Positions 29,554 to 57,586 are shown, numbered from the stretch's first letter. The stretch: DNA of 64,000 nucleotides from Elusimicrobia bacterium GWA2_66_18 (GCA_001799675.1 MGTX01000004.1:157591-221590); one strand, 5' to 3'. Numbers and translations are program-made. The notes: generated by a model from the letters alone, not told the origin.

Positions 29554-29554
29554 G

Positions 29555-30196: not shown

Positions 30197-30214
30197 CAGC
30201 CCTCCTCGCGCCCT

Positions 30215-30580: not shown

Positions 30581-30605
30581 TATGAATTCTCCGTTTGAGT
30601 GCGGT

Positions 30606-31823: not shown

Positions 31824-31846
31824 GGTGCGGAACTTAAAGCGTGGAA

Positions 31847-37556: not shown

Positions 37557-40487
37557 TCATCTCGACGGGGATGCTGAAGCCGCCTCTTTTTTGGCCGCGG
37601 CCGCCATCGCGGTTTTCTTGGCCCCCTGCTTCTGAAGTTTTCCGAATTCAACCTGGTTGTTCTTGAAGTTCTTGACCTGCTCCGGAGAAAGACTCTTGAA
37701 CATCTCCTCTCTCAGGGGCACCCGGACTCCCTCGATCTTCAGTTCCCGGGCGATCTGCTCGTCGATGGCGAAGCTCTCGGGGCGGCCGATCGTCTTTAAA
37801 AAATCATGCGTCCTCGTCTGTAGGTCGTTCGCGCCGAGCTTGATGCCGACATTGTTCATCTCGTTGGCCAAACCCCGCACGGCGGCCTGGGCCGACTTCG
37901 AATCCTCCATATAGAAGCTGGACTTATCCGCGTATTCGCTGAGCATCGCTCCGGCGCGCATCGCAAACGCCCTTTGCTCGGGCGGAAGGTCGCTGATCAT
38001 CTTCTTATACGTCTCGACGGGGGAGGTTTCCTTGTAGCCTGAAGGGCGCGGCTTCGCGTCGAAAGGAAACTCGGTCCTCATGATGATGGTCTTCGCCGTC
38101 TGGAACTGCTCGTCGGTCCAGCCCAAACGCGCCTTGAGGCCGACGTTATTGGCGTCCATCCATTCCAAGGTCGCGGGGACCCGGGCGGGCGTGCCCGGTT
38201 TTCTCGTGGGGTCGACGTCATGCAGCCTGGCGACGTCGCCGAGGAATTTTTCCCGGCCCGGAAACCGGTCTTTTGCCAGTTGTTCCATCATTCTCCCGAC
38301 CTCCAGAGAATGCTCCGCGCTGTGGTATATGTCGGCGCCTTCGAGTTCCGGGTGCAGGTTCTTCCATTCCTCGGCGGTGAAGCTGATATCCTCCGCCGGC
38401 TGCTTTGGGCCGGCCAGGCGTTGCGTCAAGCTGGTCATGGCGCGCGCGACCTGGCTGGTCGTCACCATATCGATCGCAATCGACTTGAAGCTGAGCCCGG
38501 CCGCGCCGGGCTCTGGGGCCCGACCCGTCGGCACCAGCCCAAGGCCGAGAAGCTGGGCGCCCGCGTCGATCATGCCTCGCTCGTCTTTCTTGGCGAGCGC
38601 ATCCATGCCGACGAGGCCTTGCTGGCCGGCCATCGACAAAAGGAAGCCTTTGACGGCTTTCCCGCCGGCGTCCGCGACCACGGCCAGCCTGGTTGCTTCC
38701 GCGCCCTTGGCGAGCAAGCCGGACGCCCCGCCCAGCACCCCGAATCCAAAGCTTTGAATGGTGTAGTCGGCGGCGTATAGGACCGCGGCGCCCAGGCCGT
38801 TGGCGACCTTGCCGCCGGTCGTCGGCGAATTCACGGCCGCGTCCACGAAGCGCTTGGGAGCGCCTGCAAAGCCCTCCTGAAGGCTGCCGTCCATCAGCCG
38901 ACGGCCGAGTTCCTCGTCTGAAAGATCGAGCTTCCGATTCCTAAGAGCGACGGCTTGGGTCGGAGTCGCACTGGCGATCTCATCCTTGCGATACATCTCC
39001 AGCCATTCGCCTTTGCGCCGTTCGAATTTTTCAGGGCCTAGCTTCTCGCGCAATTCGTCGACCGCCGCCGTTCCCGCGCCGCTGAAATAATTGATGGCCT
39101 GATATTTCGAGATGACGCCGTAAACGGCGTGTTCCTCGCTTCCCGTCAGCGCGCCGACGAGCCGGCTCGTGCCGGCGGTCAGCGCGTAGCCGATGGTCTT
39201 TCCCACCCCCGCCACGACGGCGACCGCCCGGCCGGCTTCTTTAAAGCCGTGCACCTTTTCGAACAGAGAGCCCGCCTTCTGCGACGCGTAGGTCAGAACG
39301 CCGTCATCCGGCGGGCGTTTCGAGGCGACCTCCTTCATCTGCTTGCCGTCCCACTCCAGGCGCGTGTAGGCGGTCTCCTCGGCGCTGCGGAAACCCTTGT
39401 CCACGCTGTAACGGGTGACATACGCGGTCTCATAACGCTCGATCCGCATCGGTCGTCCTGTTTTTGGGTCGTCTTGCGATATCTCGACCTTCTCATGCCT
39501 GCGTCCGTCGGGCCATTCGGTGACCGTCGAGTCGATCCAATCCAACCGACCGCCTCTGAAGCCGGAGATGTAAGTCGTCGTCGCGCGGCCGTTCGATATC
39601 TGATAGACCAAAGCAGGCTGCCCATCCGCGCCGCCCGGGATGAGCCTCGGGGGGAGGCTGAAGTCTTTGCCTGCAAGAGCGGCGAGCCGGGATTGAAATC
39701 GCAGGAACTCATTTTTCCGCAGGACGCCGGCGTCCAGCAGGCCCGTGAGATCCGGCGAGAGGAGGCGGTGCCGCTCTTCCCGAGCTTTGCGCTGGAGGGC
39801 TTCCGGCAGGAAAGGCAGCTGCTCGGCCACAGCCCACCCGGCATCTTGAGCCGAAAAGCGCGCCGCCGCAACCGCGGGCTTGGTTTTCGCGGGCATGTCC
39901 AACCTGTTGAGGGCTTCGTTTTTTGATCCCCTGAGATCGTTGATGGAGACGGCCGGCTTCAGCGGCCGGGTGTCGTTCCCGGCGTCCTCACCCGAGCCGG
40001 CCGGAGGAGCGGGCCAATCGGCTGGCGCCGGCGGGCGGGCGCCGTCGAAGATGCGCGAGGCATCGTCGGTCGGCGGGCGGGCGGCGGCGCCGGCCTTCGC
40101 CATCGCCGCGTGGAGCCTGAGATATTTTTCAACCGCGGCGTCCGTTTGCGTTTCGGAAAAACCTAAGCCGGCCGCGACTCCTCTGACCTGGGCGCAGAGG
40201 GCGGGGGGCTCGGCGGCTGGAATATCCGTTAGAAGAGCGTCATAGCGGCGCGCTTTCGCCTGGAATTCGTTCCAGGCTGCATCAATCTCGGTGGTGGACT
40301 TGGAGGCTTTGATCTCCCGCTCAAGAACGGCTGAATCGACCCGCAAAAGAGTCGCCGCCGCGAAATTCTCTTTAAGAGCGTCGCAAGCCCGATTGATCTT
40401 CGCGGATAATTCGGCCCCCGGCTCGGTCGCCATGCCGGGCAGGACGATAAGAAAAACGACAAACGCCCGCAGGGCTTTTCCCAGCAT
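37557..40487 (-). CDS. Exported 976-aa hypothetical protein with a C-terminal HD-like motif
   Basis: Start at Met147 gives MLGKALRAFVVFLIVLPGMA. The central region is Gly/Ala-rich and hydrophobic. The C-terminal part has YHSAEHSLEVGRMM...LGDVARLHDVDP (an H...HD pattern). The tail is Lys/Ala-rich. Confidence 0.6.
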   Translation of the reverse strand: MLGKALRAFVVFLIVLPGMATEPGAELSAKINRACDALKENFAAATLLRVDSAVLEREIKASKSTTEIDAAWNEFQAKARRYDALLTDIPAAEPPALCAQVRGVAAGLGFSETQTDAAVEKYLRLHAAMAKAGAAARPPTDDASRIFDGARPPAPADWPAPPAGSGEDAGNDTRPLKPAVSINDLRGSKNEALNRLDMPAKTKPAVAAARFSAQDAGWAVAEQLPFLPEALQRKAREERHRLLSPDLTGLLDAGVLRKNEFLRFQSRLAALAGKDFSLPPRLIPGGADGQPALVYQISNGRATTTYISGFRGGRLDWIDSTVTEWPDGRRHEKVEISQDDPKTGRPMRIERYETAYVTRYSVDKGFRSAEETAYTRLEWDGKQMKEVASKRPPDDGVLTYASQKAGSLFEKVHGFKEAGRAVAVVAGVGKTIGYALTAGTSRLVGALTGSEEHAVYGVISKYQAINYFSGAGTAAVDELREKLGPEKFERRKGEWLEMYRKDEIASATPTQAVALRNRKLDLSDEELGRRLMDGSLQEGFAGAPKRFVDAAVNSPTTGGKVANGLGAAVLYAADYTIQSFGFGVLGGASGLLAKGAEATRLAVVADAGGKAVKGFLLSMAGQQGLVGMDALAKKDERGMIDAGAQLLGLGLVPTGRAPEPGAAGLSFKSIAIDMVTTSQVARAMTSLTQRLAGPKQPAEDISFTAEEWKNLHPELEGADIYHSAEHSLEVGRMMEQLAKDRFPGREKFLGDVARLHDVDPTRKPGTPARVPATLEWMDANNVGLKARLGWTDEQFQTAKTIIMRTEFPFDAKPRPSGYKETSPVETYKKMISDLPPEQRAFAMRAGAMLSEYADKSSFYMEDSKSAQAAVRGLANEMNNVGIKLGANDLQTRTHDFLKTIGRPESFAIDEQIARELKIEGVRVPLREEMFKSLSPEQVKNFKNNQVEFGKLQKQGAKKTAMAAAAKKEAASASPSR

Positions 40488-40549
40488 AGGGGTCGTTGAG
40501 ATGCGAAGCTCCCTCTTTTTATAACCCCGGTTCCCCTGACTGTCAAGTG

Positions 40550-41506
40550 CTAAAAGCCGGCCTTCATGGAGTACTGCATCACGTCCCCGAGCCTGCCTCC
40601 CGGCATCCACGAGAAATCCCCGTCCAAGCCGCGCCAGGACGCCCCGAAGCCGAATGAGACCCCGCCGAGCCCCCCCGCGTCCCTGCGCTCCGAGCGCCAG
40701 CCGGCGCGCGCCGCCGCGCTCAGACCGGGAGCCGCGCGCACGCGGTACTCCGAGCCGCACGAGAGGATCATCGCGTCCTGACGGGGCAGGTCCGCCTCGG
40801 CTACGGCCAGCCACTGCCCCCGCCTCCAGGACGCCGCGCCGTAGGCGACGAACGGCAGGGAGTCGGCGTAAGAGCCCAGACGCAGGCGCCCGAAGGCGTT
40901 TCGCACGCCGCCGGCCGCCGTCCAATCCCCGAACCGCCAGAGCGCGCCCAGGTCCGCGGTGAGCGCGGTCGCCCGCGCCGAGTCGAGAGAGGACTCCACC
41001 AGCTTCGCTGCGGCCCCCAGGGCCAGCTTGGCGCCCGGAACGGCGACGCCATAGGAGAGAGCGTAGGCTCGGTCGGCGGCGCCGAAGGTCCCGGCCGCCG
41101 CGTCGGTCTCCACGAGGCCCCGGCGTTCGATGCCCGACGCCGAGAGGCTGTAGACCGAGACCGCCGCCGTCCCGTAGTCCGAAACGCGGCGCGTCTTGTC
41201 CGTCCAGGCCAGCACGGGCGCCGAGAGGACGGCGTAGTCGTAGGAGAGGCCCTCGAAGCGAGCCTCGTGACCGCCCGCCGCCTCCACGCGGTCCAGCAGC
41301 CCCAGCCCGGCCGGGTTGTAGTGCGTGGCCAGGGAGTCGCCCTCCACCGCGCCGTAGGCGCCTCCCAGGGCCGACGCGCGCGCGCCCGGGGTCAGGCGCA
41401 GGAAGGCCGCCGCGGCCGTGCCCTTGCCCGAGGAAGAAGATGAGGCGGGAGCGGCGGCCAGAGCCGCCAGGACGAGGGAGAACGGCGCGATCAGGGCGCG
41501 CCTCAT
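40550..41506 (-). CDS. PorV-like outer-membrane beta-barrel protein
   Basis: ATGA overlap with the stop of the giant gene. Signal peptide MRRALIAPFSLVLAALAAAPA. The N-terminal motif AAAFLRLTPGARASALGGAYGAVEGDSLATHYNPAGLG resembles the PorV/LptO family. Alternating beta-strand pattern, C-terminal residue Phe. Confidence 0.65.
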   Translation of the reverse strand: MRRALIAPFSLVLAALAAAPASSSSSGKGTAAAAFLRLTPGARASALGGAYGAVEGDSLATHYNPAGLGLLDRVEAAGGHEARFEGLSYDYAVLSAPVLAWTDKTRRVSDYGTAAVSVYSLSASGIERRGLVETDAAAGTFGAADRAYALSYGVAVPGAKLALGAAAKLVESSLDSARATALTADLGALWRFGDWTAAGGVRNAFGRLRLGSYADSLPFVAYGAASWRRGQWLAVAEADLPRQDAMILSCGSEYRVRAAPGLSAAARAGWRSERRDAGGLGGVSFGFGASWRGLDGDFSWMPGGRLGDVMQYSMKAGF

Positions 41507-44500
41507 TTGAGCACAGCCATCTTGAAGGTCCTGCGCCGCCCGCCGACCTCGACGAGGCCGATATAGAGGCCGCTGGCCGCGTCGCGCCCGTCGTCGCCGC
41601 GCCCGTCCCAAGCCTGGTAATAGGTCTGGCCGCCGGACAGCAAGCCCAGATCCACGGTCCGCACCAAACGACCCGCCACGTCGAAGACGCGCAAGGTTCC
41701 GCCGCCGGAGACCGCCGGGGGCACGGACACCCGGATCAGCGTGCCCCGGACCGAGGCTAGGCCGCCGCCGTGCACCGTGGTCACGGTCTTGACGGAGAGG
41801 TCGAAGGGATTGGGGAAGTTGTAGGCCTCCAGGTCTGCGCCCCCGAAGGAGGAACCGCCGATGTATCCCACCGAGGCGTCGAGGAGGACGTAGGTGGAGA
41901 AGTGGTCCACATGAATGGCGACGGTGCGCTCCGCGGCGTCCACGACGGGCGGCGCCCCCGTCACGTCGGGCTGGCGCACGTAAATGCGAGCCGCCGGGTT
42001 GTACCAATACACGGCCAGCCGCCCCGCGTCGGCCACGGCGCTCGAGTAGGAGAGGGTCAGCTCCGCCGGGCGGGCTAGGCGCGTGGGCACGCCCGCCGGC
42101 AGAGCCACGTCGAAGAACGCGCCGGCGGGAGTCACTCCCGCGGGGAGCGCCCCAGCTTGGAGCGGAGCCGCGGAACGCGCGAAGTCCACCATCACGGTCG
42201 CAGACGCGTCCACGGCCAGAGCTCCGCGCGGCAGGACCACGCGCGCGGCGTCGCCCTCCAGGGACAGCGTACCGCCCATCGCGTTGGCGACGGCGCGGCG
42301 GTGCAGGCCGTCGGCGGCAAGCGAGATCGTCGCGGTCGCGTCGACGGTCAGCTCGCGCGCGGACGGGTCCGTCGAGGACCAGTCCTCGGCCGCCAGCGCC
42401 GCGCGCGCGCGTAAGACGAGGGAAGTCTCGCCGGGAACGGAGTCGTAGTAGGCGGACACCGAGCGGCGATCCGAGGACAAGGCGGCTGCGTAGAGCGGCG
42501 CCAAAGCCGTGGTCGTGCTCAGGGCCAGGGCCGGGTCGTCGTCGGAAGTCAAACGCGACCGCAGCGGCCTTGGAAACATCGCCTCCACGCGCCAGCGCGC
42601 GCCCTCGCGGCGGGCCCGGAAGGAAACCGGACCCGCCGACGGGCGCAGGACCAGGTCCAGGACTCGCGCGTCGGAGGTGCTCGTCAAGACGACGGCCGCG
42701 CCCTCGGGCGGCGTCAGGGCCCATCCCGCCGGCCCCGAAACGATCAGGCGATAGGTCCGGCCCGGGGTCAATCCCCCGAAGCGATAGCCGGTCACGGCGC
42801 GCGCGGCCGCGTCTCGCGTCAGCGCCGCATAGTAGAACTCGGATGAGTCCGGCGCGGCCGCGACGAGAGCGTTCACCTCGTCCTCGCCGGGAGCCGAGCC
42901 GTCCGGCAGGCGCAGGGTCCCGCCGAGGGCGGCGCCCTCCCCGAGAGTCACCACCCCCAGGTCGACTTCGGCGGCGTTAACGATCACGGCGCGAGCGGCC
43001 CCCGCCAGTCCCAAGGCGGAGGCGGTCAGGCGGTAGGCCCCCGTGGCGACGGCCGGAATGGCGAAGGTCCCATCCGGCTGCGTGCGGAAGATGAGGTCGG
43101 CCAGCGGGTCCTCGGCCGGGGGCAAGCCAGCCTTCTGGAGGGAGAGCGCGGCTCCCAGCCCCAGGGCCGAACGAAGAACGCTGCCGTCGGCGGAGACGAC
43201 GCGGCCCGAAACGGTCGATGCGGCCGCAAAGAGAGAAAAATCCCGGACGGCTCCGCTCGAAACGTCCACGCAGAGCGCGCGGCGAGCCTCGTAGGGCGGC
43301 AAAGGGTCTCCACCGGACAGTTCCCCGCGGGGCGCTGCGGTCAGGTCGTACCAGCGAACCGTCGGGTCAAGTCCGCGCAGAATATAGAGGCCCGAGGCAT
43401 CGCTCAAAGCCGAGCGTTCGCCCAAAGCCTGCGCCGTGCGCGCTCCGGCGTCGCGGCAGGCGCGCGCCATCACGCGCACTCCTGAGATGGGCGCCCCCGC
43501 CGCGTCCGTGACGCGGCCCGAGACGAAGGCCCCCGCAAAGAGAGGGACAACCCCTAGGTCCACGGCCTGCCCGGCGTAGAGGGATACTCCGGAAACGCGC
43601 GCCGGCGAGAGGGCAAGGCCGCCGGCGGCCAAGGCCGGAGTGTCCACCGGAACGCGGAACTCCACGTCGTAGACGCCCGCAGGCAGTCCGTCTATGACCA
43701 CCCTGCCCGAGGAGTCCAGCAACGAGCCATCCGGCGCCGGACGCAGGTCGAAGTATCCTCCCGCGCGCGCGGGTACCGCCGTCGCGCGTGCCGCAAATCC
43801 GCGCGGCAGGAGCGCCGCGTTGTCGCGCCCGATGAGTTCGTGCTCTTCGGCGCCGTCGGATTTGAGACGGGCTGCGGAAAGTCGGGCGCGAATCGTCCCC
43901 GAAGGAGCCAGAGAGAGAACCAGCCCGGAGAGGTCGGCTCCCGCGACCACGACGGGACGAGGAACCGCCGCGAAGGCCCGCGGCGCGCTCAGGTCCTCCG
44001 CGAACAGGGAGTAGCGGCCGTCGGCCGTCCCGTCGAAGGAGAAGGTCGCCGATCCTCCTGGCGGAGGGGCGATCTCGACGGAACGCACGGTCCGGCCGCC
44101 CTCGTCGACTAGGAAGACGCGGATGCGGCGGCCCGACGGAAGGTTAGGAGGCGCGCCCAGCAGCCCCGACACGCGCGAGCCGCGCGTCAGTCGCGGGGAA
44201 AGCATGACCGGAGACGTTCCCACGCTGACCAACTCCGTGTATTCGACGGCCTCCGGACCGTTGGAAGGATCGTCGTCGAGGTCCCCGGACACGCGCAGGA
44301 TGTAGAGCCCCGATCCGACTCCGGGTTGGAAGTTGAAGGATCCGTCCGGCGACACCGCCGCGACCAAGCCCAGGGAGGTCGCGGTCGCCGAGGAAGGAGC
44401 CAACACCGCGCAGGATCCCGCGCCTGCCGAGGAGCGGCGCAAGGAGATCGCGCCTTCTCGCGGATCGAAGGCGACAAGCTCAACGCGCAGGGCCGAGCGA

Positions 44501-47500: not shown

Positions 47501-50500
47501 GCGCAGTAGCGGCGTCCGTCGGTGAGCGCCGCGTCGGGGATGGGGCTGGCCCAGGATGTGGAGGGCGTCAAGGGCGAGGCCAGCGTCGTCGTGGCATAGA
47601 TGGGGACTGCGGAAGCAAAGGAGCCTGCGAGCCAGTTGAAGTGGAGCCCCGTCTCCACCTCGCGAACGTCCACGCGCACGCGCTCAACGGCGGAGCCGTC
47701 CGCCGCGGTGCCGGAGATGGCGCCGCCCAGGGTCGCGACCGCTGCGCCGGTGGGCACATGAAAGGAAGCGGTGGGGCTGGAAAGGCTGGGCGGCGAGACT
47801 CCGAACACCGAACTCGTATCGGAAGCCACGAAGGGCTGGGTCAGGTCCGTGGCGGAGAGGGTGAAATAACCGGTGACCTGGAAAATCAGGCCGGAGAACG
47901 CAAACTGCCCCGCCGCGAGCGCCCGCGGCGCGGGAAGGGTCGCCGAGGAAGTCAAAGCGCCCAGTGCGACCGTATCGGTGATCGTCGAGACCTCGTTGCC
48001 GTAGGGGTCAACGGCGCGCACCGTCGCGCTGAAGGGCACGCCCTTGACCCGGGCGAAAGGAGATCCGGCCTTACCCGTGACGGAGCCCGGCCATGCCGCC
48101 TGCCCGGGCAGAATAACCTGCAGGCGCGCCAGCCCGGCCGGGATCACCGAAATCGTGGAATACCCCAGCCCGAAGGCGGTCGCGGCCGAGACGACGGTGA
48201 CTCGCGGGCTCGGCTCGGCGGTGCGCGGCGTGAACTGAAGCGTCGCCATGCTGGCCGAAAGAGGCTGGGACGAACCCAGGACCGCGTTAGGGTCGTCGCT
48301 GGCCAAGGTCACAGTCCCAGAAACCTGCCAGGCCAAGTCGAAGCGGGAAGACACCGCCAGGACCGTCACCGTGATGACGGCGCCCGCGGTGGAGACGGAG
48401 GGTGTTCCGGTCTTGCCGGGGCCGACGGCGGGGGTGAAGGTCTCGCCCGGCAGGAGGACCACGAGGTTCGGAAAGAAATCCCAGTTGAGATCGCCGCCGG
48501 CGTCGACGTTGCGCCCGTCGTCGGCCAGGATGGTCTGCCCGGAGGAGGCGTCGCAGTCCGAGACCATGACCGCGGTCACGCTCGAGACCGCGGTCACGCG
48601 CAGAGACCACGGCAGGCCCGCGGTCCTGGAGCGCACCCGCATGACGGCCCCCCCGCCCGCGCCAAGACGCAGATCGGCCACGCTCAGAAGCGTGCCCGGG
48701 GCGAAGGCCAAGGTGCTTCCCGCCACGGCGTCGCTCAGCACCGCGACGGTCGCGGAGGTCAGGAAGGCGGCGCTCGTGACCGCGATGGAAAGTCCGTTGA
48801 AGACCGCTCCTCCGTAGACGGCCACGGACTCGTAGCTTCGACCGGCGGCGGCGCCGGCGAGGCTCACGGTGCTCGTCTGCCCGTCGAAGTAGGCGCCCGT
48901 AGACACGAGGAGGCTGCCGGCCAGCGTCAGGTTCCCCGTCCCGGCCGAGAAGGTTCCGGCGTAGACGCTGAAATCGCCGAACAAGACGAGGTCGGAGGCG
49001 GCCTGCACCGGGCCCGTGCCCACGCTCACGAGGTTCCACAGCGTCGAGCCGGGCAACAGGCTCAAGGTCTGGGTCGAGGCTCCCGTCATCGTCAGGCTCG
49101 CCGACGTGGACGCGGAAAAGTCCACGATGCCGCCGGTCTGGAACACGCCGCCGGCAACCGAGACGGTGCTGGCCGCGATCGGGCGCAAGACTCCTCCCGA
49201 TACGACCAGCGGGCCGGAGAGATTCAGCGTCGGAGCGCGGAACACCTCTGCGCCCCCCGCCAAGTTCACGCGCAGCCCGCCGAAAGTGTTCGTCGAAATC
49301 CCGGCGCCGCGGGCGGCGCCCGTGCCCTCGAAGAGGAGCCAGGAATTGGCGACGTCGCCCGCGTAGGACCAATTGGCTCCCGAGGATGGGATCAGATCGG
49401 CGCTTCCGCGCAGGGTGATGGTGGAACCGCCCGGCGCATTGACCACGGTCGAGCCCTGGCGCGGGTCGAAGGAGTTGCCGTAGCCCTCCACGATGAGGTC
49501 TCCCTGGAGGACCGCGGTCTTGTTGGCGGCCAGGGCGAGCTTGGCGTTGACGACGCTTCCCGAGGCCACTTGGATGGAGGAGACGGGAGACCAGATCACC
49601 GTGTGCGACGGATTGACGGCGAGGTAGGTGGAGAAGGCCGTGTCCCAGACGGGGCCCGCGACCGTCAACATCGAGCTCCCGCCGTCGAAGACCGCTCCGG
49701 GCAAGATTCGAAACGAAGAGACGAACCCGTTGATGTTGAGACGCGCGCCCGCGGCGCTCCGGTTGGCCACGACTAGGTCACCGAAAGTCGCGAAGTTGAT
49801 GTTCTGGGGCGTGACTCCCGCCAGTATCGTCGTAGATCCCGTCACGGTGATCGTCTCAAAGGTGGATTGGGTCATGTCTCCGCGGATGGTCAGGAGGGCT
49901 CCTGGGTAGTAGAGGGCGCCGCTGCGCCATTCAAAGCCGGCCAGCGTAGAGACCGTGCTCGAGATGGTAACGCCTGCGGTGGTGGCGACGCGGAAAGTCC
50001 CAAAGGAGCCCGTGGCGAGTTGGCGCACCGTCCGGCTCGAGGCCCCGTCGAAGACGGCCACGCTGGCGCCTCCCAGGACCGCCGTGCCGGATTGCTCCGT
50101 CCAGGACCCTCTCACCGAGATGGTCGAAGCCGCCAAGTCGAGGGTGCCGCTGACCACGATGACGTTTCCCTCGGCCACCGTCGCCGTCGACAGAATCAGA
50201 GCGCCTGCGCCGGCGTCGATGAATAGATTGTCGAAGGAGGCTCCCGCCAATACGCTCGCCGCGCCGGACAGGGCGTTAAAGACCGCGGTCGAACGACTCA
50301 CGACAGCCGCGCCGTAAACCGTCCAGTCACCTCCGATTTGAAGAAGCGTCGTGCTCGCCATCAGCAAGGTCCCGGTGTCCACCGACACGCCCCCCGCCAA
50401 GATGAAACTGGCGCCCGCGGAAGGACTCAGCCGGAGCCCTCCGGGGTTGATATTGGAAACGCGCAGGCCCCCGATGCGCCCCGGCCAGGCCGTCCAGGTC

Positions 50501-52131
50501 TGCGAGGAGGAGCCGGCGGCCACGGCGACGGCGCCGGGGGCGCCGTCGACCGAACCTGCCCCGGTAAACGGACCGTCGCCGTCGAATGTCACCGTTCCGG
50601 TCGAAAGGACGAGCAGCGCGCCGGCTGAGAGATGGGCGCGAGAGACGACCTCGAGTATCCCGGTGACCGTCGCCGTAGCCGCCGTGGGCCCTCCCACGAC
50701 GAGTCTCGCTACCTTGGCATCGTAAAAGGACGCTGCGTATGCGCCTCCGAATCCCGCGAGGGTCAAGGTCGAAGCGCCTAAGTCGATGAGTCCTCCCGTC
50801 TGGGCCAGGTCGCCGCCTAGGGTGAGCAGGAGCCCCGCCCCGGCTACGACCGTACCGCCCGCCATCTCGAAAGCCCCGGTCACGGTCAAAGACGACGCCA
50901 GGACCACCGTCGTCGACAAGGCGGTGGTCAGCGTCATCGAGCCCACGGACACGGAGGGCATGTTCCAGAGACACCCCTTCACGGTCTGAGAAGCTCCGAA
51001 GACCAGGCGTTCGCCGCCCGATGGAGACAAGCCCTCGCTCCAGTTCGCCGGCGTGGAGGCCAGGGCATCGGCGCCCAGGCCCGTCCAATGGCGCGGATCC
51101 ATGAAGGCGGCGCCGCCCGATCCGCCGCCGCCGGAAGCGACGCCCGCGCCGAAGCTGCCCCCATTGACAAGGATGTTAAGGGCTGAGTGAAAGATGGAAT
51201 AGCCCGAGCTTTCCTGGATCCATACCCGGCCTCCGCCGCCCCCCCCGCCTCCGAAATTGGCGCCGGCGCCGCCGTCGCCGCCGCGCGCGCTGAGCGTGCC
51301 GGATCCCGTGATCACCTGAGCCAAGACCACGATGGAACCGCCGGCGCCCCCGCCGCCGCCCTGCAAACCGAGAGTCACACCCGGATCGCCGTCGGCCTCG
51401 AGCAGACCGTCGAGAGAGGCGGTGGCTGCGTCCACCTGGAAGAAACCGCCGCCCCCGCCGCCGTCGGCCGAGGGCGTGCCTCCTCCCCCCGAACCCGAGT
51501 CCACGGCAGGCATGGCGTCGCCGGCCGGCCCGCCGCCGGAGCCGCCCCCGCCGGAGCCGCCGGCGCCCCCGTGCCCGCCCCCGCCGCCGCCCATGACGAC
51601 CGACCCTGCGCCGCCGCCGCCGGGTCCCGATCCGGCGGCCGCACCCGCGCCCCCCGCATAGCCGCGGCCCTTGATGGTCACGGTGGAGCCCGCGCGCAGA
51701 TCGAAGAAGCCCGCCGAGATGAAGACGGCCCCCGGACTCATCGTGCCGGCGGGGCCGTAGAAGGTCATGCTGGAACCGGGATGGAGAGTAAAGATCCCGG
51801 CCGTGATCGTTAGAGGGGTGGAGACCTGGATGGCGGCGCCGCCCAGGACGTCGAGTCCGGAGGACACGGCCAATCCCGTCGAGATCCTCAGCACCGCGCC
51901 CGCTCCGCCCAAGCTCAGGGATCGGACCGAGACGAGAGGGTCCGTCGAATAGACGACCACTAATTCCGAGGCGATGGTCGCGTCGTCTAGAGGGCCCGGC
52001 GCCGCCGCGCCCGACCAGTTAGCCGGCTGGTTCCAGTCGCCGACGGCGCCACCCACCCAGGAGATCGAAGCCGCCCGCGCCGCCGTCGCGGCCAGAAGGA
52101 CGAGGCACGTCGCGGGGAGCAGTCGCGCCAT
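41503..52131 (-). CDS. Giant (3,542 aa) surface protein with a T9SS-type C-terminal sorting domain
   Basis: Start at Met209 (TGATG overlap with the upstream stop) gives the signal peptide MARLLPATCLVLLAATAARA. N-terminal ISWVGGAVGDWNQPANWSG (autotransporter-associated beta-strand-repeat-like), then poly-Gly runs, then kilobases of Ala/Gly/Ser/Thr/Val-rich beta-type sequence and CarboxypepD_reg-like units (SGRVTDAAGAPISGVRVMA). The C-terminus is YNFPNPFD...LRVFDVAGRLVRTV...WDGRGDDGRDAASGLYIGLVEVGGRRRTFKMAVLK. Confidence 0.85.
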   Translation of the reverse strand: MARLLPATCLVLLAATAARAASISWVGGAVGDWNQPANWSGAAAPGPLDDATIASELVVVYSTDPLVSVRSLSLGGAGAVLRISTGLAVSSGLDVLGGAAIQVSTPLTITAGIFTLHPGSSMTFYGPAGTMSPGAVFISAGFFDLRAGSTVTIKGRGYAGGAGAAAGSGPGGGGAGSVVMGGGGGGHGGAGGSGGGGSGGGPAGDAMPAVDSGSGGGGTPSADGGGGGGFFQVDAATASLDGLLEADGDPGVTLGLQGGGGGAGGSIVVLAQVITGSGTLSARGGDGGAGANFGGGGGGGGRVWIQESSGYSIFHSALNILVNGGSFGAGVASGGGGSGGAAFMDPRHWTGLGADALASTPANWSEGLSPSGGERLVFGASQTVKGCLWNMPSVSVGSMTLTTALSTTVVLASSLTVTGAFEMAGGTVVAGAGLLLTLGGDLAQTGGLIDLGASTLTLAGFGGAYAASFYDAKVARLVVGGPTAATATVTGILEVVSRAHLSAGALLVLSTGTVTFDGDGPFTGAGSVDGAPGAVAVAAGSSSQTWTAWPGRIGGLRVSNINPGGLRLSPSAGASFILAGGVSVDTGTLLMASTTLLQIGGDWTVYGAAVVSRSTAVFNALSGAASVLAGASFDNLFIDAGAGALILSTATVAEGNVIVVSGTLDLAASTISVRGSWTEQSGTAVLGGASVAVFDGASSRTVRQLATGSFGTFRVATTAGVTISSTVSTLAGFEWRSGALYYPGALLTIRGDMTQSTFETITVTGSTTILAGVTPQNINFATFGDLVVANRSAAGARLNINGFVSSFRILPGAVFDGGSSMLTVAGPVWDTAFSTYLAVNPSHTVIWSPVSSIQVASGSVVNAKLALAANKTAVLQGDLIVEGYGNSFDPRQGSTVVNAPGGSTITLRGSADLIPSSGANWSYAGDVANSWLLFEGTGAARGAGISTNTFGGLRVNLAGGAEVFRAPTLNLSGPLVVSGGVLRPIAASTVSVAGGVFQTGGIVDFSASTSASLTMTGASTQTLSLLPGSTLWNLVSVGTGPVQAASDLVLFGDFSVYAGTFSAGTGNLTLAGSLLVSTGAYFDGQTSTVSLAGAAAGRSYESVAVYGGAVFNGLSIAVTSAAFLTSATVAVLSDAVAGSTLAFAPGTLLSVADLRLGAGGGAVMRVRSRTAGLPWSLRVTAVSSVTAVMVSDCDASSGQTILADDGRNVDAGGDLNWDFFPNLVVLLPGETFTPAVGPGKTGTPSVSTAGAVITVTVLAVSSRFDLAWQVSGTVTLASDDPNAVLGSSQPLSASMATLQFTPRTAEPSPRVTVVSAATAFGLGYSTISVIPAGLARLQVILPGQAAWPGSVTGKAGSPFARVKGVPFSATVRAVDPYGNEVSTITDTVALGALTSSATLPAPRALAAGQFAFSGLIFQVTGYFTLSATDLTQPFVASDTSSVFGVSPPSLSSPTASFHVPTGAAVATLGGAISGTAADGSAVERVRVDVREVETGLHFNWLAGSFASAVPIYATTTLASPLTPSTSWASPIPDAALTDGRRYCATAFVDDPTGLIGTTASTFTVDRSALSYGARDGQGSAFVAADSTAGCQAVAATVTFTVGGSGLSAGGALAVRVPDGWSVPVGVTTQFPPQAGYWNVISTSLASTLGSTSTEVNPAARGAQALGAGWIVVSVKSGAAESFRPGEKIVLTYAGMPPLSPAGRGAQTFAVWTQADASGTLAPISTQPVLSLGAGTTSQLVFTNASTLVLGPLQSSSTLQLRVTDLCGNDKLGASSGTVSLSLLVPSGGGYIPDATAKFTSLTGSPISSVFLSTGFAVSPSFFLKISTVGPSLAYIRAAANFTGTAGAVNAEAMRPVRLVGSTVAFTAVSVDSGTLCAGTTSVSLSSTDPSAYEARIVFSLPDPALAWDLVLSTDAVDFGGPVMRAAGFGDPDRPVVASWDGVNRILSPPRAAPPGRYRARLRAGGGAAENRALEVVAPVGASYVGRLGLRGAGAWVRATGPGAGEGAFALASSTGYFQLFGLRAGADYRLSVTTAVNVGGRYVNLSTEVAAVAAAAPLTDLGSLALPATAQLRVAVIIPVASPRDALGGFVARAADGSAVFSGPLRFSTGAATSDDAGPLFGRAASTWSVVIAAPGVYDLDLEVVDLRLSTRAPGVSLGAGGLDLVIPLDKRANAFGWAVLPSTTAFGTFVSVQARKAGEIAPSAFGGVFVSSIAPAVGPSSAAYSLYGLDPGTWTILAAAPGFTSDSTTVVLLDAADLSVADLALGMGGVVTGTVTVTGDSRGVSSCFAGPSGVPGACPAGVFELEVEALAVGRLERAASRVRLSTAAVTSTAAFTLSGLSPGVWTLRSSLPGFTLQPAGGLTLTVAAAAVSTAALGLAAEDARLRVDVRLPTLPGGACRATSAYQALGLAVSASDGLSRVFGDATAMTSSGAFVAAYCSSATLFTAALPPGPVRAAALFSGTGGWAAGRVLLVEGATVALTLDLSGSTVSVSGTVIVSGELSLSTRAASGAPFSVAASSPAGILSAAPGVSFCLLGSRDPQPRSALRVELVAFDPREGAISLRRSSAGAGSCAVLAPSSATATSLGLVAAVSPDGSFNFQPGVGSGLYILRVSGDLDDDPSNGPEAVEYTELVSVGTSPVMLSPRLTRGSRVSGLLGAPPNLPSGRRIRVFLVDEGGRTVRSVEIAPPPGGSATFSFDGTADGRYSLFAEDLSAPRAFAAVPRPVVVAGADLSGLVLSLAPSGTIRARLSAARLKSDGAEEHELIGRDNAALLPRGFAARATAVPARAGGYFDLRPAPDGSLLDSSGRVVIDGLPAGVYDVEFRVPVDTPALAAGGLALSPARVSGVSLYAGQAVDLGVVPLFAGAFVSGRVTDAAGAPISGVRVMARACRDAGARTAQALGERSALSDASGLYILRGLDPTVRWYDLTAAPRGELSGGDPLPPYEARRALCVDVSSGAVRDFSLFAAASTVSGRVVSADGSVLRSALGLGAALSLQKAGLPPAEDPLADLIFRTQPDGTFAIPAVATGAYRLTASALGLAGAARAVIVNAAEVDLGVVTLGEGAALGGTLRLPDGSAPGEDEVNALVAAAPDSSEFYYAALTRDAAARAVTGYRFGGLTPGRTYRLIVSGPAGWALTPPEGAAVVLTSTSDARVLDLVLRPSAGPVSFRARREGARWRVEAMFPRPLRSRLTSDDDPALALSTTTALAPLYAAALSSDRRSVSAYYDSVPGETSLVLRARAALAAEDWSSTDPSARELTVDATATISLAADGLHRRAVANAMGGTLSLEGDAARVVLPRGALAVDASATVMVDFARSAAPLQAGALPAGVTPAGAFFDVALPAGVPTRLARPAELTLSYSSAVADAGRLAVYWYNPAARIYVRQPDVTGAPPVVDAAERTVAIHVDHFSTYVLLDASVGYIGGSSFGGADLEAYNFPNPFDLSVKTVTTVHGGGLASVRGTLIRVSVPPAVSGGGTLRVFDVAGRLVRTVDLGLLSGGQTYYQAWDGRGDDGRDAASGLYIGLVEVGGRRRTFKMAVLK

Positions 52132-53354
52132 CACCAATCCCACCTCAATCCCGCCAGAGCCGTCGCGGCCTCGTAGGCATAGCGGTAGTAGCGTTGGTAG
52201 CGCTGGTTGGAGGAGGCGCTGACGCGCTCCACGCTGAACAGCAGACTCAAGCGCCGGGCCATCGGGTAGTCCAGCGACGCGCCGAACGTCCACTCGATCG
52301 TCGTAAGAGAGCCCGAGCCGTAGGCCCCTGTTTCGCCCTGCGGGGGACGCCGCGTATAATGACGCTGCCGCCGCCCCAGCTTCAACTGGGCGGTGACGGG
52401 GCGGCGCGGCGGACCGATCACGACGCTGGCCGAGGGCGCGACGCGCCATTCGACGTAGTCGTAGAAACCGGCAAGGAAGCGTCCGCGAGTCGCATCGTAG
52501 CCGTTCTGGTCGGAGGTATTGGCGTTTACGCCCAGTTCCAAGCCCGCGCGCGCGCGCAGATCCGCGTTCCAGTCGTGGGGCATGCGCAGGGCGAACGCCG
52601 CTGACGTCAGGAAGTCCTGACGGGTCCGTCCGGAGAGTTGCCCTCCCTCGTCGACGAGAGGCTGGGAGGGAAAGCGCGACCAGACGCCCAGCAGCGAGCC
52701 CTCCGCCACGGCGCGTGATCCCAGGGAAGCATCGCCGCCGACACGGAACTGCCAACCCGTGCGGTCCAGCACGCGGTCGCCGACGAGTTCGCGCGCCAGG
52801 GATTGTCCCGAGAACTGGAAGACCGCCTGGGATTCGAGGGTGGTGTAGTTCGGGTAGGCAACCTGGAACCAGTCCACAGCCAAGCGCAGACTATGCGGTG
52901 CAACGGTCATAAGTTCGGCCTCGGCTCCGGCCGTCCAGCGGACCTGATCGTAGAGGCCCAGGCCCCAGGTCTCATCCTTGGTTTCCTTGAGCATCTCGCG
53001 GGCATAGGCGACGGCGGGCTTGAAACGCCAGCGCGAGGACGGCTGCGACCATACCGCGCGGATTGCGAGTCGACTCTCGAAGCGCTCCTGGGCGCTCGTC
53101 GCGGTCCCGAGGACGTCGTTTACGCGGCGAGTGCCCTCATACTCGGCGCGGACGGAGGGCAGCAGCGACAAGCGATCGTCGAGGCGCATCGCCGGCGCAA
53201 AGGAAGCGTCCGCGTTGCCCGAAAGGGAGCCGCGCTCGCCCGCGAAGGATTGCATCCCTCCCAAGACGGTGATCCCGCCGACCGGAGTCCACTCGACAGC
53301 CCCCGCGAAAGACGCGCTCAAAACAAGGATGGCGCTCAGAAAGGAGTGTCTCAC
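52131..53354 (-). CDS. Putative outer-membrane beta-barrel protein
   Basis: GTG start in a GTGA overlap with the upstream stop. Signal-like (V)RHSFLSAILVLSASFAGA. Alternating hydrophobic pattern throughout, and a C-terminal ...GLRWDW aromatic end. Confidence 0.55.
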   Translation of the reverse strand: MRHSFLSAILVLSASFAGAVEWTPVGGITVLGGMQSFAGERGSLSGNADASFAPAMRLDDRLSLLPSVRAEYEGTRRVNDVLGTATSAQERFESRLAIRAVWSQPSSRWRFKPAVAYAREMLKETKDETWGLGLYDQVRWTAGAEAELMTVAPHSLRLAVDWFQVAYPNYTTLESQAVFQFSGQSLARELVGDRVLDRTGWQFRVGGDASLGSRAVAEGSLLGVWSRFPSQPLVDEGGQLSGRTRQDFLTSAAFALRMPHDWNADLRARAGLELGVNANTSDQNGYDATRGRFLAGFYDYVEWRVAPSASVVIGPPRRPVTAQLKLGRRQRHYTRRPPQGETGAYGSGSLTTIEWTFGASLDYPMARRLSLLFSVERVSASSNQRYQRYYRYAYEAATALAGLRWDW

Positions 53355-54769
53355 GGAATATCCCCGGTCTCGGCCAGGATGCGCGGCGAGAAGAGCACCT
53401 GGATGGAGCGTCCGTTGAACTCGGTCGCCGTCTGGGTCTGTTGGAAGCCGTCTGCGACCCGGCGCGTTTCCAGGCCCAAGGCCGAGCCGTCGGCGTAAGA
53501 TTCCAAGTCCAAACGACGCGTCGCAGAGCCGTCCGGGAAGGTGGAGTTCGCGGTGAAGGCCGGCAGGGGAGCGGCCAGCGCCGCGCCGGTGAGCGGGTCG
53601 TTGAGCGAGGAGGGCAGGGCGTCGGCCTGGGCTGAGAGGTTCACGCCGGTCCAACCGCGCTTGAGCACGCCGTCGGCGTAGAGACCCGAGCGGTCGAAGA
53701 GCGTGCGGAAGACCGGGCGCCCCGCTACGCTGACATATGCGTCGGTCGCGGGGTCGAAGAGGCTCGAGACGTCGTCCGTCGGGTCCGCATTGGAATTAAG
53801 GTCCACTTGATGTCCGCCGGCTCCGCGCATGATGAGCGAATCGGAGAAGCTCCCCCGGACCGCTTCGTAGGAGACGAGCGTCCATGCGGCGGGCGCGTCC
53901 GCATGGCCCGAAAGCGATGAGAACACGTCCGAAAGATCGCGAGGAAGAGCGCGGTCGAAGACCCCCGTCCAGGTCAACCAGGACAGCCCTCCCTCGCGGC
54001 GTCCGTTGAGCGCGACGAATGAGAAGCTGTCGGCCGACGACCTCACCAGATACTCCTCGGCCCGCACGCGGCGCCCGTCGGCGTCGGTCAGCACATGCCC
54101 CAGTTCGTGGTCCGCGCGCCTCGTCTCGGCGGCGACCAGCCGCTGGGGTTCGTCGCGAGCCAACTCCAAGGCGAACTCTCGACGCATGCTTGCGGCGAAT
54201 TCGTCGCGGCGTGTCTGGTCGACGGTGGGCGCCTCGATCGGCTCGTGGAATCCCCCGGCGTCGGCTTGCAACCGCTGTCCTTGGCGCAGGAGCATGCCGC
54301 GGCCGCGCTCGTCCTCGACTCCGATGAGGCCCTTGTCGACCTGAAGCACCGTGTTGCCGCCGCCGAATACCGAAGCCATCCAGGAGACCGTCTCACCGCG
54401 GGCCCGCACGGTCGCCGTGGGCGTACGCAGCACCAGCTCTCGGCCCTTGAGCGCCTGCGCCGAGAGACGCATCGAGCCGAAGAGCAGGTTGACGACGCTT
54501 CCCACGCCCGAGCTCTCGACGAGGAGAAGATGGGAGTTCCCCGCGAGGGCGAGCGTCTCTCCCGCCTCGAGAACCACGACCGCCCGGGCGCCAAACCCGG
54601 TCCTCACCGCGTCCCCGACGGCGAGGGAACGCGCCGCCTGGCCCGCCGGACGCCAGCGGGCGTCGCCCGCGGCCCGGATCTGCACGAGGCCCACGGTATC
54701 GCTAACAACGGCGGCGCCCGCTGACCTCGATAGGGCCGCGAGCACGACTATGAGGAAAGTACGACGCAT
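53351..54769 (-). CDS. Exported FecR-domain protein
   Basis: Signal peptide MRRTFLIVVLAALSRSAGA. The N-terminal region GLVQIRAAGDARWRPAGQAARSLAVGDAVRTGFGARAVVVLEAGETLALAGNSHLLL is FecR-like. A C-terminal region of about 300 aa is unassigned. Confidence 0.6.
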   Translation of the reverse strand: MRRTFLIVVLAALSRSAGAAVVSDTVGLVQIRAAGDARWRPAGQAARSLAVGDAVRTGFGARAVVVLEAGETLALAGNSHLLLVESSGVGSVVNLLFGSMRLSAQALKGRELVLRTPTATVRARGETVSWMASVFGGGNTVLQVDKGLIGVEDERGRGMLLRQGQRLQADAGGFHEPIEAPTVDQTRRDEFAASMRREFALELARDEPQRLVAAETRRADHELGHVLTDADGRRVRAEEYLVRSSADSFSFVALNGRREGGLSWLTWTGVFDRALPRDLSDVFSSLSGHADAPAAWTLVSYEAVRGSFSDSLIMRGAGGHQVDLNSNADPTDDVSSLFDPATDAYVSVAGRPVFRTLFDRSGLYADGVLKRGWTGVNLSAQADALPSSLNDPLTGAALAAPLPAFTANSTFPDGSATRRLDLESYADGSALGLETRRVADGFQQTQTATEFNGRSIQVLFSPRILAETGDIP

Positions 54770-54775: not shown

Positions 54776-54819
54776 AGTGTAACAGGCCGAGGAACGGCGT
54801 CAACCACGCTTTTGTTACA
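54776..54819 (-). promoter_or_regulatory. Candidate sigma70-type promoter bracketed by an inverted repeat, upstream of the FecR-like operon
   Basis: On the minus strand, TTGACG (54803-54798), a 16-nt spacer, then TACACT (54781-54776), only 6 nt from the ATG. The inverted repeat TGTAACA (54778-54784) / TGTTACA (54813-54819) flanks it. Confidence 0.3.
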
Positions 54820-55013
54820 AGGATCGGGGATCTACGCGGCTTGCGACAGACATTACCAATTATTTACTGGCTTTCCCAAGGCCGCCCAACTATACTACCG
54901 ACAGACCAAAATCTCAATCTTTGGGCTCCCTCGGAAGCACGGTATCCGGGGTTATGGCACTCATAGGTGCCGCCTCCGACAACGTCACCGATGTCGGAAA
55001 AAGGATCGATGGT

Positions 55014-57560: not shown

Positions 57561-57586
57561 CCGCTGATTCGGCAAAGGAAAAACCA

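What the first reader, a model, noticed from the sequence alone, without database searches (positions are those of the whole stretch)
37557..54769. Self-contained operon: FecR-like, OM barrel, 3,542-aa CTD-bearing surface protein, PorV-like barrel and HD-motif protein, with no T9SS core nearby
Five co-directional genes lie here. The first four are chained by 1-4 nt start/stop overlaps (GTGA at 53351-53354, TGATG at 52129-52133, ATGA at 41503-41506), which implies co-translation.

The giant protein ends in a domain that looks like the type IX secretion C-terminal sorting domain (NFPNPFD...VFDVAGRLV...WDGRGDDGR..ASGLY). The next gene has the N-terminal motif of the T9SS shuttle protein PorV (FLRLTPGARASALGGAYGAV...YNPAGL). 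No PorK/L/M/N, SprA/Sov or PorU homologue lies within 17 kb on either side. Instead the cargo is preceded by a second unassigned barrel and a periplasmic FecR-domain protein that has no partner ECF sigma factor.

A dedicated cargo-plus-PorV-like-plus-barrel-plus-FecR cassette is not a described T9SS layout. It could be a minimal or divergent surface-attachment route for giant adhesins.
Basis: partly seen in the sequence, partly recalled or inferred. Interest (0 to 1): 0.75.

Follow-up and report, generated by a model that had tools for sequence, protein, structure and literature searches.

The report
Giant adhesin with private PorV-like anchor
An uncultured Elusimicrobia bacterium carries a conserved four-gene module: a giant surface protein with a type-IX-like tail, its own PorV-like outer-membrane barrel, a new barrel family and a secreted FecR-domain protein; this layout is not the described type IX secretion system and the phylum is not known to have one.

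Summary
Five co-directional minus-strand genes lie at 37557-54769, and the first four have the stated 1-4 nt overlaps.

- The 318-aa protein is a true PorV-family barrel (profile vs PDB PorV E=9e-29; best fold match PorV, TM 0.71).
- The giant's tail is a FlgD_ig-type β-sandwich. It is weakly but consistently related to T9SS type A sorting domains and to the retained tails of PorU and PorZ.
- The 407-aa protein is a 16-strand barrel of a new family, named only in Elusimicrobiota.
- The 472-aa protein is a secreted FecR-domain protein with no anti-sigma part.

The order FecR–barrel–giant–PorV-like recurs in 43 loci from representative genomes, all but one titled Elusimicrobia/Elusimicrobiota. 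Every testable Elusimicrobia-type tail (43/43) is followed by its own PorV-like gene. Weaker, canonical-looking tails never are (0/46).

The fifth ("HD") gene is found only in this species' contigs, has no profile support, and is not part of the module.

Best reading: a cognate tail/PorV-like surface-anchoring pair, like PorZ–PorQ or type-B-tail/PorP pairs. The new barrel and the FecR protein are candidate export or assembly partners. I could not test whether a SprA/PorKLMN core exists elsewhere in these genomes. This is a new variant of a known kind.

The parts
54776..54917 (-). Two sigma-70-like promoter matches upstream of gene A: 54917-54889 (TTGAGA-17-TATAGT) and 54803-54776 (TTGACG-16-TACACT)
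   Evidence: 2 found against 0.1 expected in shuffles. These are consensus matches only, not shown to function.
53351..54769 (-). Gene A: secreted 472-aa protein with an N-terminal FecR domain (residues 53-128) and about 340 uncharacterised residues. It has no TM or anti-sigma domain.
   Evidence: FecR is found in 14/14 orthologues (best 5.7e-18). No PDB relative beyond a weak anti-sigma FecR-like hit. Always directly upstream of B.
52131..53354 (-). Gene B: 407-aa outer-membrane β-barrel of a new family (about 16 strands, ends ...RWDW). Its GTG start overlaps the stop of A (GTGA).
   Evidence: AlphaFold2 model pLDDT 86.7. Foldseek finds only generic barrels, TM <= 0.45. 433 relatives among 1.84 billion representatives; every named one sampled (4 of 10 looked up) is from Elusimicrobiota/Endomicrobiia. 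Unrelated to D.
41503..52131 (-). Gene C: 3542-aa giant secreted protein. It has a signal peptide, a Gly-rich β-helix-like N-terminus, CarboxypepD_reg/Ig-like repeats and a C-terminal sorting-type domain. Its ATG overlaps the stop of B by 1 nt.
   Evidence: Orthologues follow B in every locus long enough to show it.
41506..41844 (-). C-terminal domain (CTD) of C (last 113 aa): a FlgD_ig-type β-sandwich with the motifs NFPNPFD, LRVFDVAGRLVRTV and SGLYIG...FKMAVLK
   Evidence: FlgD_ig 2e-9. TIGR04183 16.2 bits (cutoff 23). Weak hits to the tail regions of PorU and PorZ.
40550..41506 (-). Gene D: 318-aa, 14-strand PorV-family (FadL-superfamily) outer-membrane barrel. Its ATG overlaps the stop of C (ATGA).
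   Evidence: Profile vs PDB PorV 6h3i_F E=9e-29. AlphaFold2 pLDDT 88.2. Best fold hits are PorV 8gl6_F (TM 0.71) and 6h3i_F (0.68).
37557..40487 (-). Gene E: 976-aa exported protein of unknown function, 62 nt downstream of D. It is adjacent and possibly co-transcribed, but it is not part of the conserved module.
   Evidence: No Pfam, NCBIfam or PDB hit. Found only in same-species contigs L001-L006. No terminator-like site between D and E.

Best explanation
This is a conserved surface-protein module, found here only in Elusimicrobiota.

Shown or read from sequence:
- The giant protein C has a Sec-type signal peptide (by inspection), so it is expected to enter the periplasm.
- Its C-terminal β-sandwich belongs to the same superfamily as T9SS sorting domains.
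- D is a PorV-family 14-strand barrel encoded immediately downstream and overlapping C's stop by 4 nt.

Inferred:
- The tail of C docks on D, and D holds the giant on the cell surface with the tail retained.
- This would work like PorZ on PorQ, PorU on PorV, and type-B-tail proteins on PorP/SprF barrels in Bacteroidota.

Genes A (periplasmic FecR-domain protein) and B (a new, highly conserved 16-strand barrel) always precede a giant gene. They are the best candidates for a dedicated partner that helps the giant cross or assemble at the outer membrane. This step is inferred only. Gene E is a lineage-specific neighbour.
For: - D is PorV-like by sequence profile (9e-29 to PDB PorV) and by fold (TM 0.71 to PorV in the substrate-tail-bound complex 8gl6).
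- All 14 tail orthologues hit FlgD_ig and, below threshold, TIGR04183 (best 7e-6), the PorU tail region (4e-7) and the PorZ tail region (1e-6). The profile also hits the PorZ tail in PDB 5m11 at 0.017.
- Start/stop overlaps are present in the window, and the same 4-nt overlaps appear in the gene calls of CP096137.
- The order A-B-C-D is seen in every locus long enough, among 43 loci from representative genomes, all but one titled Elusimicrobia/Elusimicrobiota.
- In a metagenome sample chosen through the tail alone, 43/43 testable Elusimicrobia-type tails are followed by a PorV-like gene. Among weaker, canonical-looking tails the count is 0/46.
- At least 12 loci carry a second giant + tail + PorV-like pair next to A-B.
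- The tails fall into two classes (no Cys; or 2 Cys with a GSGL end). Tail and barrel identities co-vary, r=0.81 over 57 pairs, not corrected for phylogeny.
- Reviews propose that cognate PorV-like barrels protect and hold tails (PMC10202324). A barrel + periplasmic protein + type-B-tail complex (PorP-PorE-PG1035) is documented (PMC9143113).
- Divergent A-B paralogues are also followed by ORFs of more than 3000 aa.
Against: - No binding, localisation or secretion data exist. No complex model could be run.
- D scores just below the NCBIfam PorV/PorQ family cutoff (81.6 vs 90) and far below the PorV and PorQ equivalog cutoffs.
- The window's tail is below the TIGR04183 cutoff and has no Pfam Por_Secre_tail hit.
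- The co-variation is not corrected for shared phylogeny.
- Tail-PorV-like pairs also occur without a detectable A-B nearby (L054, L056, L060). A-B is therefore not needed for every such pair.
- One small Elusimicrobiales tail protein is not followed by a PorV-like gene.
- The roles of A and B rest on synteny alone.
Confidence: 0.6

Rival explanations
1. This is an ordinary T9SS. A SprA/PorKLMN/PorU core lies elsewhere in the genome and exports the giant. D is an extra PorV paralogue used as shuttle or anchor, and A-B do something unrelated to export.
For: - Elusimicrobia contigs encode proteins that pass the curated T9SS type A tail threshold (29.1 vs 23 bits) and a PorV/PorQ family protein well above threshold (212 vs 90 bits).
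- Homology of both D and the tail to T9SS parts makes a shared machinery plausible.
- Genome-wide absence of the core was not tested.
Against: - Reviews state that T9SS is confined to Bacteroidota or the FCB (Fibrobacteres-Chlorobi-Bacteroidetes) superphylum (abstracts listed).
- No paper in the library links T9SS to Elusimicrobia.
- No core family hit in the window ORFs scanned, nor in the precomputed Pfam lists of the fetched neighbourhoods.
- One-to-one tail/PorV-like pairing (43/43) is unlike the one-PorV-many-cargo layout, which shows 0/46 in canonical-looking loci.
Confidence: 0.25
2. A and B form a sensing or uptake pair (a FecR-like periplasmic sensor with an outer-membrane channel) that regulates or feeds the cell. 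They are not a partner of the giant protein.
For: FecR domains are best known from cell-surface signalling with outer-membrane receptors (established knowledge). A carries a bona fide FecR domain.
Against: - A has only a cleavable signal peptide, with no transmembrane or cytoplasmic anti-sigma part.
- No ECF sigma gene is adjacent.
- B has no TonB-dependent-receptor plug or signalling domain and no Pfam hit.
- A-B are overlapped with, and always followed by, a giant gene, including the 30%-identical paralogues.
Confidence: 0.1
3. D is a FadL/TodX-type channel for hydrophobic compounds, and its position after the giant gene has no functional meaning.
For: D shares the FadL-superfamily fold and the NPA-type N-terminal motif. 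It gives weak TodX hits and FadL TM about 0.6.
Against: - PorV is the clear best match by sequence (9e-29 vs 0.0065 for TodX) and by fold.
- There is a 4-nt overlap with the cargo stop, and 43/43 conserved adjacency to one particular tail type.
Confidence: 0.05

Closest known systems
PorZ-PorQ and PorU-PorV pairs of the T9SS attachment complex (Porphyromonas gingivalis)
   Same: A T9SS-type C-terminal β-sandwich is retained and bound by a PorV/PorQ-family 14-strand barrel, which holds the protein at the surface. The Elusimicrobia tails hit the tail regions of the PorU and PorZ models, and D is PorV/PorQ-like.
   Different: - Here the partners are adjacent, overlapping genes.
- The cargo is a 3500-aa adhesin-like protein, not a sortase or LPS-delivery subunit.
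- D is about 50-80 aa shorter than PorV and is below the equivalog cutoffs.
- The phylum is outside the FCB group, and no SprA/PorKLMN is known there.
Type B tail proteins with cognate PorP/SprF-like barrels (SprB-SprF; the PG1035-PorP-PorE complex)
   Same: The logic is one cargo, one barrel, and the genes are typically neighbours. The barrel anchors a very large adhesin through its tail. A periplasmic partner (PorE) joins the barrel-cargo complex independently of PorU/PorV (PMC9143113). This parallels A + barrel + C.
   Different: - The barrel here is PorV-family, not PorP/SprF (no PF11751 hit).
- The tail is closer to FlgD_ig/type A than to type B (CHU_C only 0.0014 at best).
- A is a FecR-domain protein, not PorE-like.
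- B has no counterpart.
Canonical type A tail cargo of the T9SS (TIGR04183)
   Same: C-terminal position, size, β-sandwich superfamily and motif pattern (PNP..., V.D..GR.V, GxY...K at the end).
   Different: - The score is below the curated cutoff (16.2 vs 23 bits).
- Canonical-looking tail genes in the same metagenome sample are never followed by a PorV-like gene (0/46).
- Canonical cargo share a single PorV and are cleaved by PorU.
Two-partner secretion (type Vb: FhaC/FHA)
   Same: A giant β-helix-like adhesin is encoded next to a dedicated 16-strand outer-membrane barrel. This is an analogy for what B might do.
   Different: B has no POTRA domains and no Omp85/ShlB profile hit. C has no TPS domain hit. 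This is a functional analogy only.
Treponema UPF0164 family (PF03687), a PorV/FadL-like family known from spirochaetes
   Same: By my own recollection (not checked here), it is a PorV/FadL-like barrel family present in a lineage without a T9SS. D hits PF03687 weakly (5e-4), and several homologues carry that Pfam assignment.
   Different: No paired tail-bearing cargo is known to me for the spirochaete proteins.

Membership tests
PorV/PorQ family (NCBIfam NF033709; Pfam PF19572) | Score at or above the curated family cutoff | tested here: not met
   81.6 bits against a cutoff of 90; only the N-terminal half of the model aligns well. Homologues in other Elusimicrobia are named PorV/PorQ family by NCBI, and one reaches 212 bits.
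PorV/PorQ family (NCBIfam NF033709; Pfam PF19572) | Homology and fold: a 14-strand FadL-superfamily barrel closest to PorV | tested here: met
   Profile of 34 homologues vs PDB: PorV 6h3i_F E=9e-29, next TodX at 0.0065. AlphaFold2 model with 14 long strands. Best Foldseek hits are PorV 8gl6_F (TM 0.71) and 6h3i_F (0.68), then FadL at about 0.6.
PorV proper or PorQ proper (equivalogs NF033710, NF033711) | Equivalog-level score | tested here: not met
   PorV 28 bits against 250; PorQ 47.9 against 220; PorV2 37.9 against 325.
PorV proper or PorQ proper (equivalogs NF033710, NF033711) | Works with the SprA translocon or the PorU/PorZ attachment complex | not testable with these tools
   No whole genome and no SprA/PorU query were available. 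None was seen in the window or the fetched neighbourhoods.
T9SS type A sorting domain (TIGR04183 / PF18962) | Score at or above the curated cutoff | tested here: not met
   Window tail: TIGR04183 16.2 bits against 23; no PF18962 hit even at E<=10. Orthologues: 14/14 hit TIGR04183 at E<=1 (best 7e-6) and 9/14 hit PF18962 (best 0.003). FlgD_ig passes (45 vs 27 bits).
T9SS type A sorting domain (TIGR04183 / PF18962) | Extreme C-terminal β-sandwich of about 70-110 aa with the conserved motif pattern | tested here: met
   The domain ends at the last residue. Alignment A3 shows invariant FPNP, G, Y, W, SG.Y and the terminal FK.A..K. The motif correspondence to T9SS tails is from my own knowledge of the family.
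T9SS type A sorting domain (TIGR04183 / PF18962) | Tail removed by PorU and cargo linked to anionic LPS | not testable with these tools
   Needs proteomics.
Canonical type IX secretion system (as a system) | SprA/Sov translocon, PorK/L/M/N, PorU present | tested here: inconclusive
   Absent from all window ORFs scanned and from the fetched neighbourhoods. The rest of the genome was not searchable.
Canonical type IX secretion system (as a system) | Many tail-bearing cargos share one PorV | tested here: not met
   Each Elusimicrobia-type tail has its own PorV-like gene (43/43). There are two pairs side by side in at least 12 loci. Canonical-looking tails show 0/46.
FecR-type anti-sigma factor | FecR periplasmic domain (PF04773) | tested here: met
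   35.8 bits against 24; 14/14 orthologues hit.
FecR-type anti-sigma factor | Cytoplasmic anti-sigma domain, a transmembrane helix, and an adjacent ECF sigma gene | tested here: not met
   A starts with a cleavable-type signal peptide and the FecR domain begins at residue 53. Neighbours are B and a divergent He_PIG/dockerin gene.
PorP/SprF family (type B tail anchor barrels) | Profile match for B or D | tested here: not met
   No PF11751 or related hit at E<=0.1 for B or D. B matches only generic barrels by fold.
HD-domain phosphohydrolase (gene E) | HD domain profile match | tested here: not met
   No Pfam or NCBIfam hit at E<=0.1 and no PDB relative. An H...HD string is visible in the sequence, but E also starts with a signal-peptide-like segment.

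The most novel reading that the evidence does not exclude
Elusimicrobiota lack the SprA/PorKLMN/PorU core altogether, and this module is a self-sufficient outer-membrane export-and-anchoring system. The new 16-strand barrel B, with the periplasmic FecR-domain protein A, would move or assemble the giant adhesin across the outer membrane, and the PorV-like barrel D would capture its tail. That would make it a previously undescribed secretion route. It would also suggest that the tail/PorV recognition pair is older and more widespread than the T9SS motor and translocon.
Probability: 0.3. Interest if true: 0.85.

Novelty: new variant of a known kind. Interest (0 to 1): 0.6.

Why it matters
T9SS sorting tails and PorV are treated in the reviews I read as parts of a machine specific to the Bacteroidota/FCB group (abstracts).

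Here both parts appear as a strictly paired, overlapping gene couple in another phylum. They sit with a new barrel family and a secreted FecR-domain protein, next to the largest protein in the neighbourhood.

If the T9SS core is absent, the recognition pair can work without the known translocon. Elusimicrobia would then use an undescribed way to put 3500-residue adhesins on their surface.

Even if a core exists, the one-cargo-one-PorV rule extends the cognate-barrel idea from type B tails to type-A-like tails. It also gives clean sequence pairs for studying tail-barrel specificity.

Tried and rejected
- T9SS core in the genome: I had no SprA/PorU/GldKLMN query sequence and no whole-genome access. 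The one attempt to extend the contig beyond the window failed because the gene call did not match.
- B as a PorV/FadL relative: rejected (hhalign probability 1.9%).
- B as a known barrel family: no Pfam, NCBIfam or PDB sequence hit. Foldseek gave only generic barrels with TM <= 0.45.
- A beyond its FecR domain: no further domain by Pfam or PDB profile search.
- E as an HD hydrolase, or as part of the module: no profile or PDB support, and no orthologue in any other species' locus.
- The type IV pilus/T2SS-like genes downstream as the export route: not conserved next to the cassette in other genomes, so set aside.
- Paralogues of A-E elsewhere in the window: none.
- The tail-profile protein search returned only short fragments, so it could not give a census of cargo per genome.
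- Literature searches for T9SS in Elusimicrobia or for FlgD-type tails found nothing relevant.

Full report
**Observation.** The window is GC-rich (about 0.68). Five co-directional minus-strand genes occupy 37557-54769:
- A: 53351-54769, 472 aa.
- B: 52131-53354, 407 aa, GTG start.
- C: 41503-52131, 3542 aa.
- D: 40550-41506, 318 aa.
- E: 37557-40487, 976 aa.

Two promoter-like sites lie upstream of A. All five products start with Sec-type signal sequences; this is by inspection.

**Source.** The same D protein is encoded on contigs from groundwater and sediment metagenomes and in the NCBI bin GCA_001799875.1. Its homologues that carry a source name are from Elusimicrobia, except one labelled only 'bacterium'.

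**The parts.**
- A has a FecR domain at residues 53-128, and so do all 14 orthologues tested. There is nothing recognisable in the remaining ~340 residues. It has no transmembrane or cytoplasmic anti-sigma part, so it is a secreted FecR-domain protein, not an anti-sigma factor.
- B has no Pfam, NCBIfam or PDB sequence match.
  - A confident AlphaFold2 model (pLDDT 86.7) shows about 16 long strands, and the protein ends in RWDW.
  - Foldseek finds only generic barrels with TM <= 0.45.
  - The family is unusually well conserved (66% mean column identity).
  - It has 433 relatives among 1.84 billion representatives. Of ten looked up, the four that carry a name are all Elusimicrobiota/Endomicrobiia hypothetical proteins.
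  - It is unrelated to D.
- C has CarboxypepD_reg/Ig-like repeats and a C-terminal FlgD_ig domain.
- D scores 81.6 bits on the NCBIfam PorV/PorQ family model (cutoff 90).
  - A profile of 34 homologues hits Flavobacterium PorV in the PDB at 9e-29.
  - The AlphaFold2 model (pLDDT 88.2, 14 strands) is closest to PorV in 8gl6 and 6h3i (TM 0.71 and 0.68), ahead of FadL.
- E has no hit anywhere.

**The tail.** On its own, the last 113 aa of C match only FlgD_ig and FlgD in the PDB. An alignment of 14 orthologous and paralogous tails gives more:
- All 14 hit FlgD_ig.
- All 14 also hit TIGR04183 at E<=1 (best 7e-6; the window's own tail scores 16.2 bits against a cutoff of 23).
- All 14 hit the tail region of the PorU model (best 4e-7) and of the PorZ model (best 1e-6).
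- Nine of 14 hit Pfam Por_Secre_tail, and nine hit CHU_C.
- The profile touches the PorZ tail in PDB 5m11 at 0.017.

So the tail is a member of the T9SS-tail/FlgD_ig superfamily. It is not a member of TIGR04183 by the curated threshold.

**Conservation.**
- A scan of 185,579 representative genomes with the B alignment returned 43 loci. All but one are titled Elusimicrobia/Elusimicrobiota (one of them as Candidatus Endomicrobium trichonymphae); the exception is titled only 'bacterium'.
- tblastn with the window proteins shows A directly before B in essentially every locus. C follows B, and the tail plus D follow C wherever the contig reaches that far, for example in L037, L039, L040 and L044.
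- E was found only in contigs of the same species (L001-L006).
- In at least 12 loci, a second giant (25-27% identical) with its own tail and its own PorV-like gene (30-37% identical) lies immediately upstream of A.
- Divergent A-B paralogues (about 30% identity) are also followed by ORFs of more than 3000 aa.

**Is the pairing special?** I fetched 80 metagenome loci through the tail alone and scored them with HMMs for the tail, D, A and B. The loci split cleanly.
- Strong Elusimicrobia-type tails (E <= 1e-29) sit on very large ORFs. In 43 of 43 cases with room to judge, a PorV-like gene follows immediately.
- Weak tail matches (E 1e-9 to 1e-17) sit on 130-1600-aa proteins, often in tandem, as canonical T9SS cargo do. 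None of 46 is followed by a PorV-like gene.

Further points:
- Among 57 unique pairs there are two tail classes: 29 with no cysteine and no GSGL end, and 26 with two cysteines and a GSGL end.
- Tail identity and barrel identity co-vary (r = 0.81, not corrected for phylogeny).
- Tail-PorV-like adjacency also occurs without A-B, in another Elusimicrobia contig (L060, where the PorV protein scores 212 bits) and in two contigs of unnamed bacteria (L054, L056).
- One small Elusimicrobiales tail protein is not followed by a PorV-like gene.

**Mechanism.** The pairing, the overlap, the PorV fold and the resemblance of the tail to the retained tails of PorU and PorZ point to one reading. D is the cognate outer-membrane dock of the giant's tail and keeps it on the surface. 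A T9SS review proposes exactly this role for cognate PorV-like barrels, naming PorZ/PorQ and type B tails with PorP/SprF (PMC10202324). A PorP barrel + periplasmic PorE + type-B-tail cargo complex that forms independently of PorU and PorV is documented (PMC9143113).

How the giant crosses the outer membrane is not shown. A and B are the obvious candidates because they are conserved, overlapped with the giant, and always found with a giant. That is inference from synteny.

**What I could not do.** The key open point is whether these genomes encode SprA, PorK/L/M/N or PorU.
- None is in the window ORFs I scanned, nor in the precomputed Pfam lists of the fetched neighbourhoods.
- Reviews place T9SS only in Bacteroidota or the FCB superphylum (abstracts).
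- No paper in the library links it to Elusimicrobia.
- I had no way to search a whole Elusimicrobia genome.

**Verdict.** The real unit is four genes, not five. The HD reading of E fails. The tail and D are homologous to T9SS parts but fall below the curated membership thresholds. The layout is conserved across the phylum and differs from the canonical one. I class it as a new variant of a known kind: a cognate tail-barrel anchoring pair, here with a PorV-family barrel, a new accessory barrel and a FecR-domain protein, outside the FCB group. There is roughly a 0.3 chance that it is a self-sufficient new export route.

Noticed in passing
window 58000-62000: GC drops to 0.46-0.48 against about 0.68 elsewhere. 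The ORFs there (57491-59662 +, 59048-59644 -, 60541-60924 +, 61817-62260 -) have no Pfam hits. This is possibly a foreign island.
   Followed up: partly
window 28544-37354 (minus strand): A type IV pilus / T2SS-like cluster lies directly downstream of E. It holds a pilin with an N_methyl motif (36929-37354), a hybrid histidine kinase with Hpt (34272-36974), a T2SSE/MshEN ATPase, T2SSF (30606-31823), a LuxR-type response regulator (29555-30214) and another N_methyl protein (28544-29269). It is not conserved next to the cassette in other genomes.
   Followed up: partly
window 54921-57560 (+): An 879-aa protein with a He_PIG Ig domain and a weak, sub-threshold match to a type I dockerin domain (21.8 bits against a cutoff of 22.9) is transcribed divergently from gene A.
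   Followed up: no
window 43-867 and 1241-1399: An ORF6N/Rha-like phage regulatory protein sits next to tRNA-Lys and tRNA-Glu. This may be a remnant of an integrated element.
   Followed up: no
window 4387-9239: A caspase-domain (Peptidase_C14) protein (7737-9239) and a GDSL-lipase + TPR protein (4387-6747) lie here.
   Followed up: no
L007/L008/L027 (CP096137.1, 906-940 kb): In this complete Elusimicrobiota genome, the A orthologue is split into two ORFs and the giant orthologue into at least four ORFs in different frames. These are frameshifts, a pseudogene or assembly errors. A second, intact 3633-aa giant + PorV pair lies just upstream.
   Followed up: partly
L014, L016, L018, L026, L030, L034, L035, L037, L038, L041, L051, L084, L085, L095, L103: A second giant + tail + PorV-like pair lies immediately upstream of A. 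Its tails have two conserved cysteines and end in ...IIKGSGL. The window's genome has a different gene at that position.
   Followed up: yes
L056 17258-18775: In an unnamed bacterium, a PorV-like barrel is fused to an OmpA C-terminal domain (492 aa) directly after a 1044-aa protein with a faint Por_Secre_tail hit. A 173-aa tail protein + PorV-like pair lies nearby.
   Followed up: no
L038 and L048 (contig JACRNU010000082.1): One 44-kb contig carries two different A-B cassettes (about 30% identical to each other's type). At least the one in L048 is followed by a giant ORF.
   Followed up: partly
L058/L059 10569-14243: In Elusimicrobiales, a 180-aa protein that passes the TIGR04183 cutoff is followed not by a PorV-like gene but by a 1224-aa protein. 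That protein's only PDB relative is the Bdellovibrio protein bd2133 (E=2.8e-7).
   Followed up: partly
window 13603-18794 (+): This is a very GC-rich stretch (0.73-0.75). It holds a 706-aa ORF and a 419-aa ORF without Pfam hits, flanking a double-PDZ protein (15720-16961).
   Followed up: no
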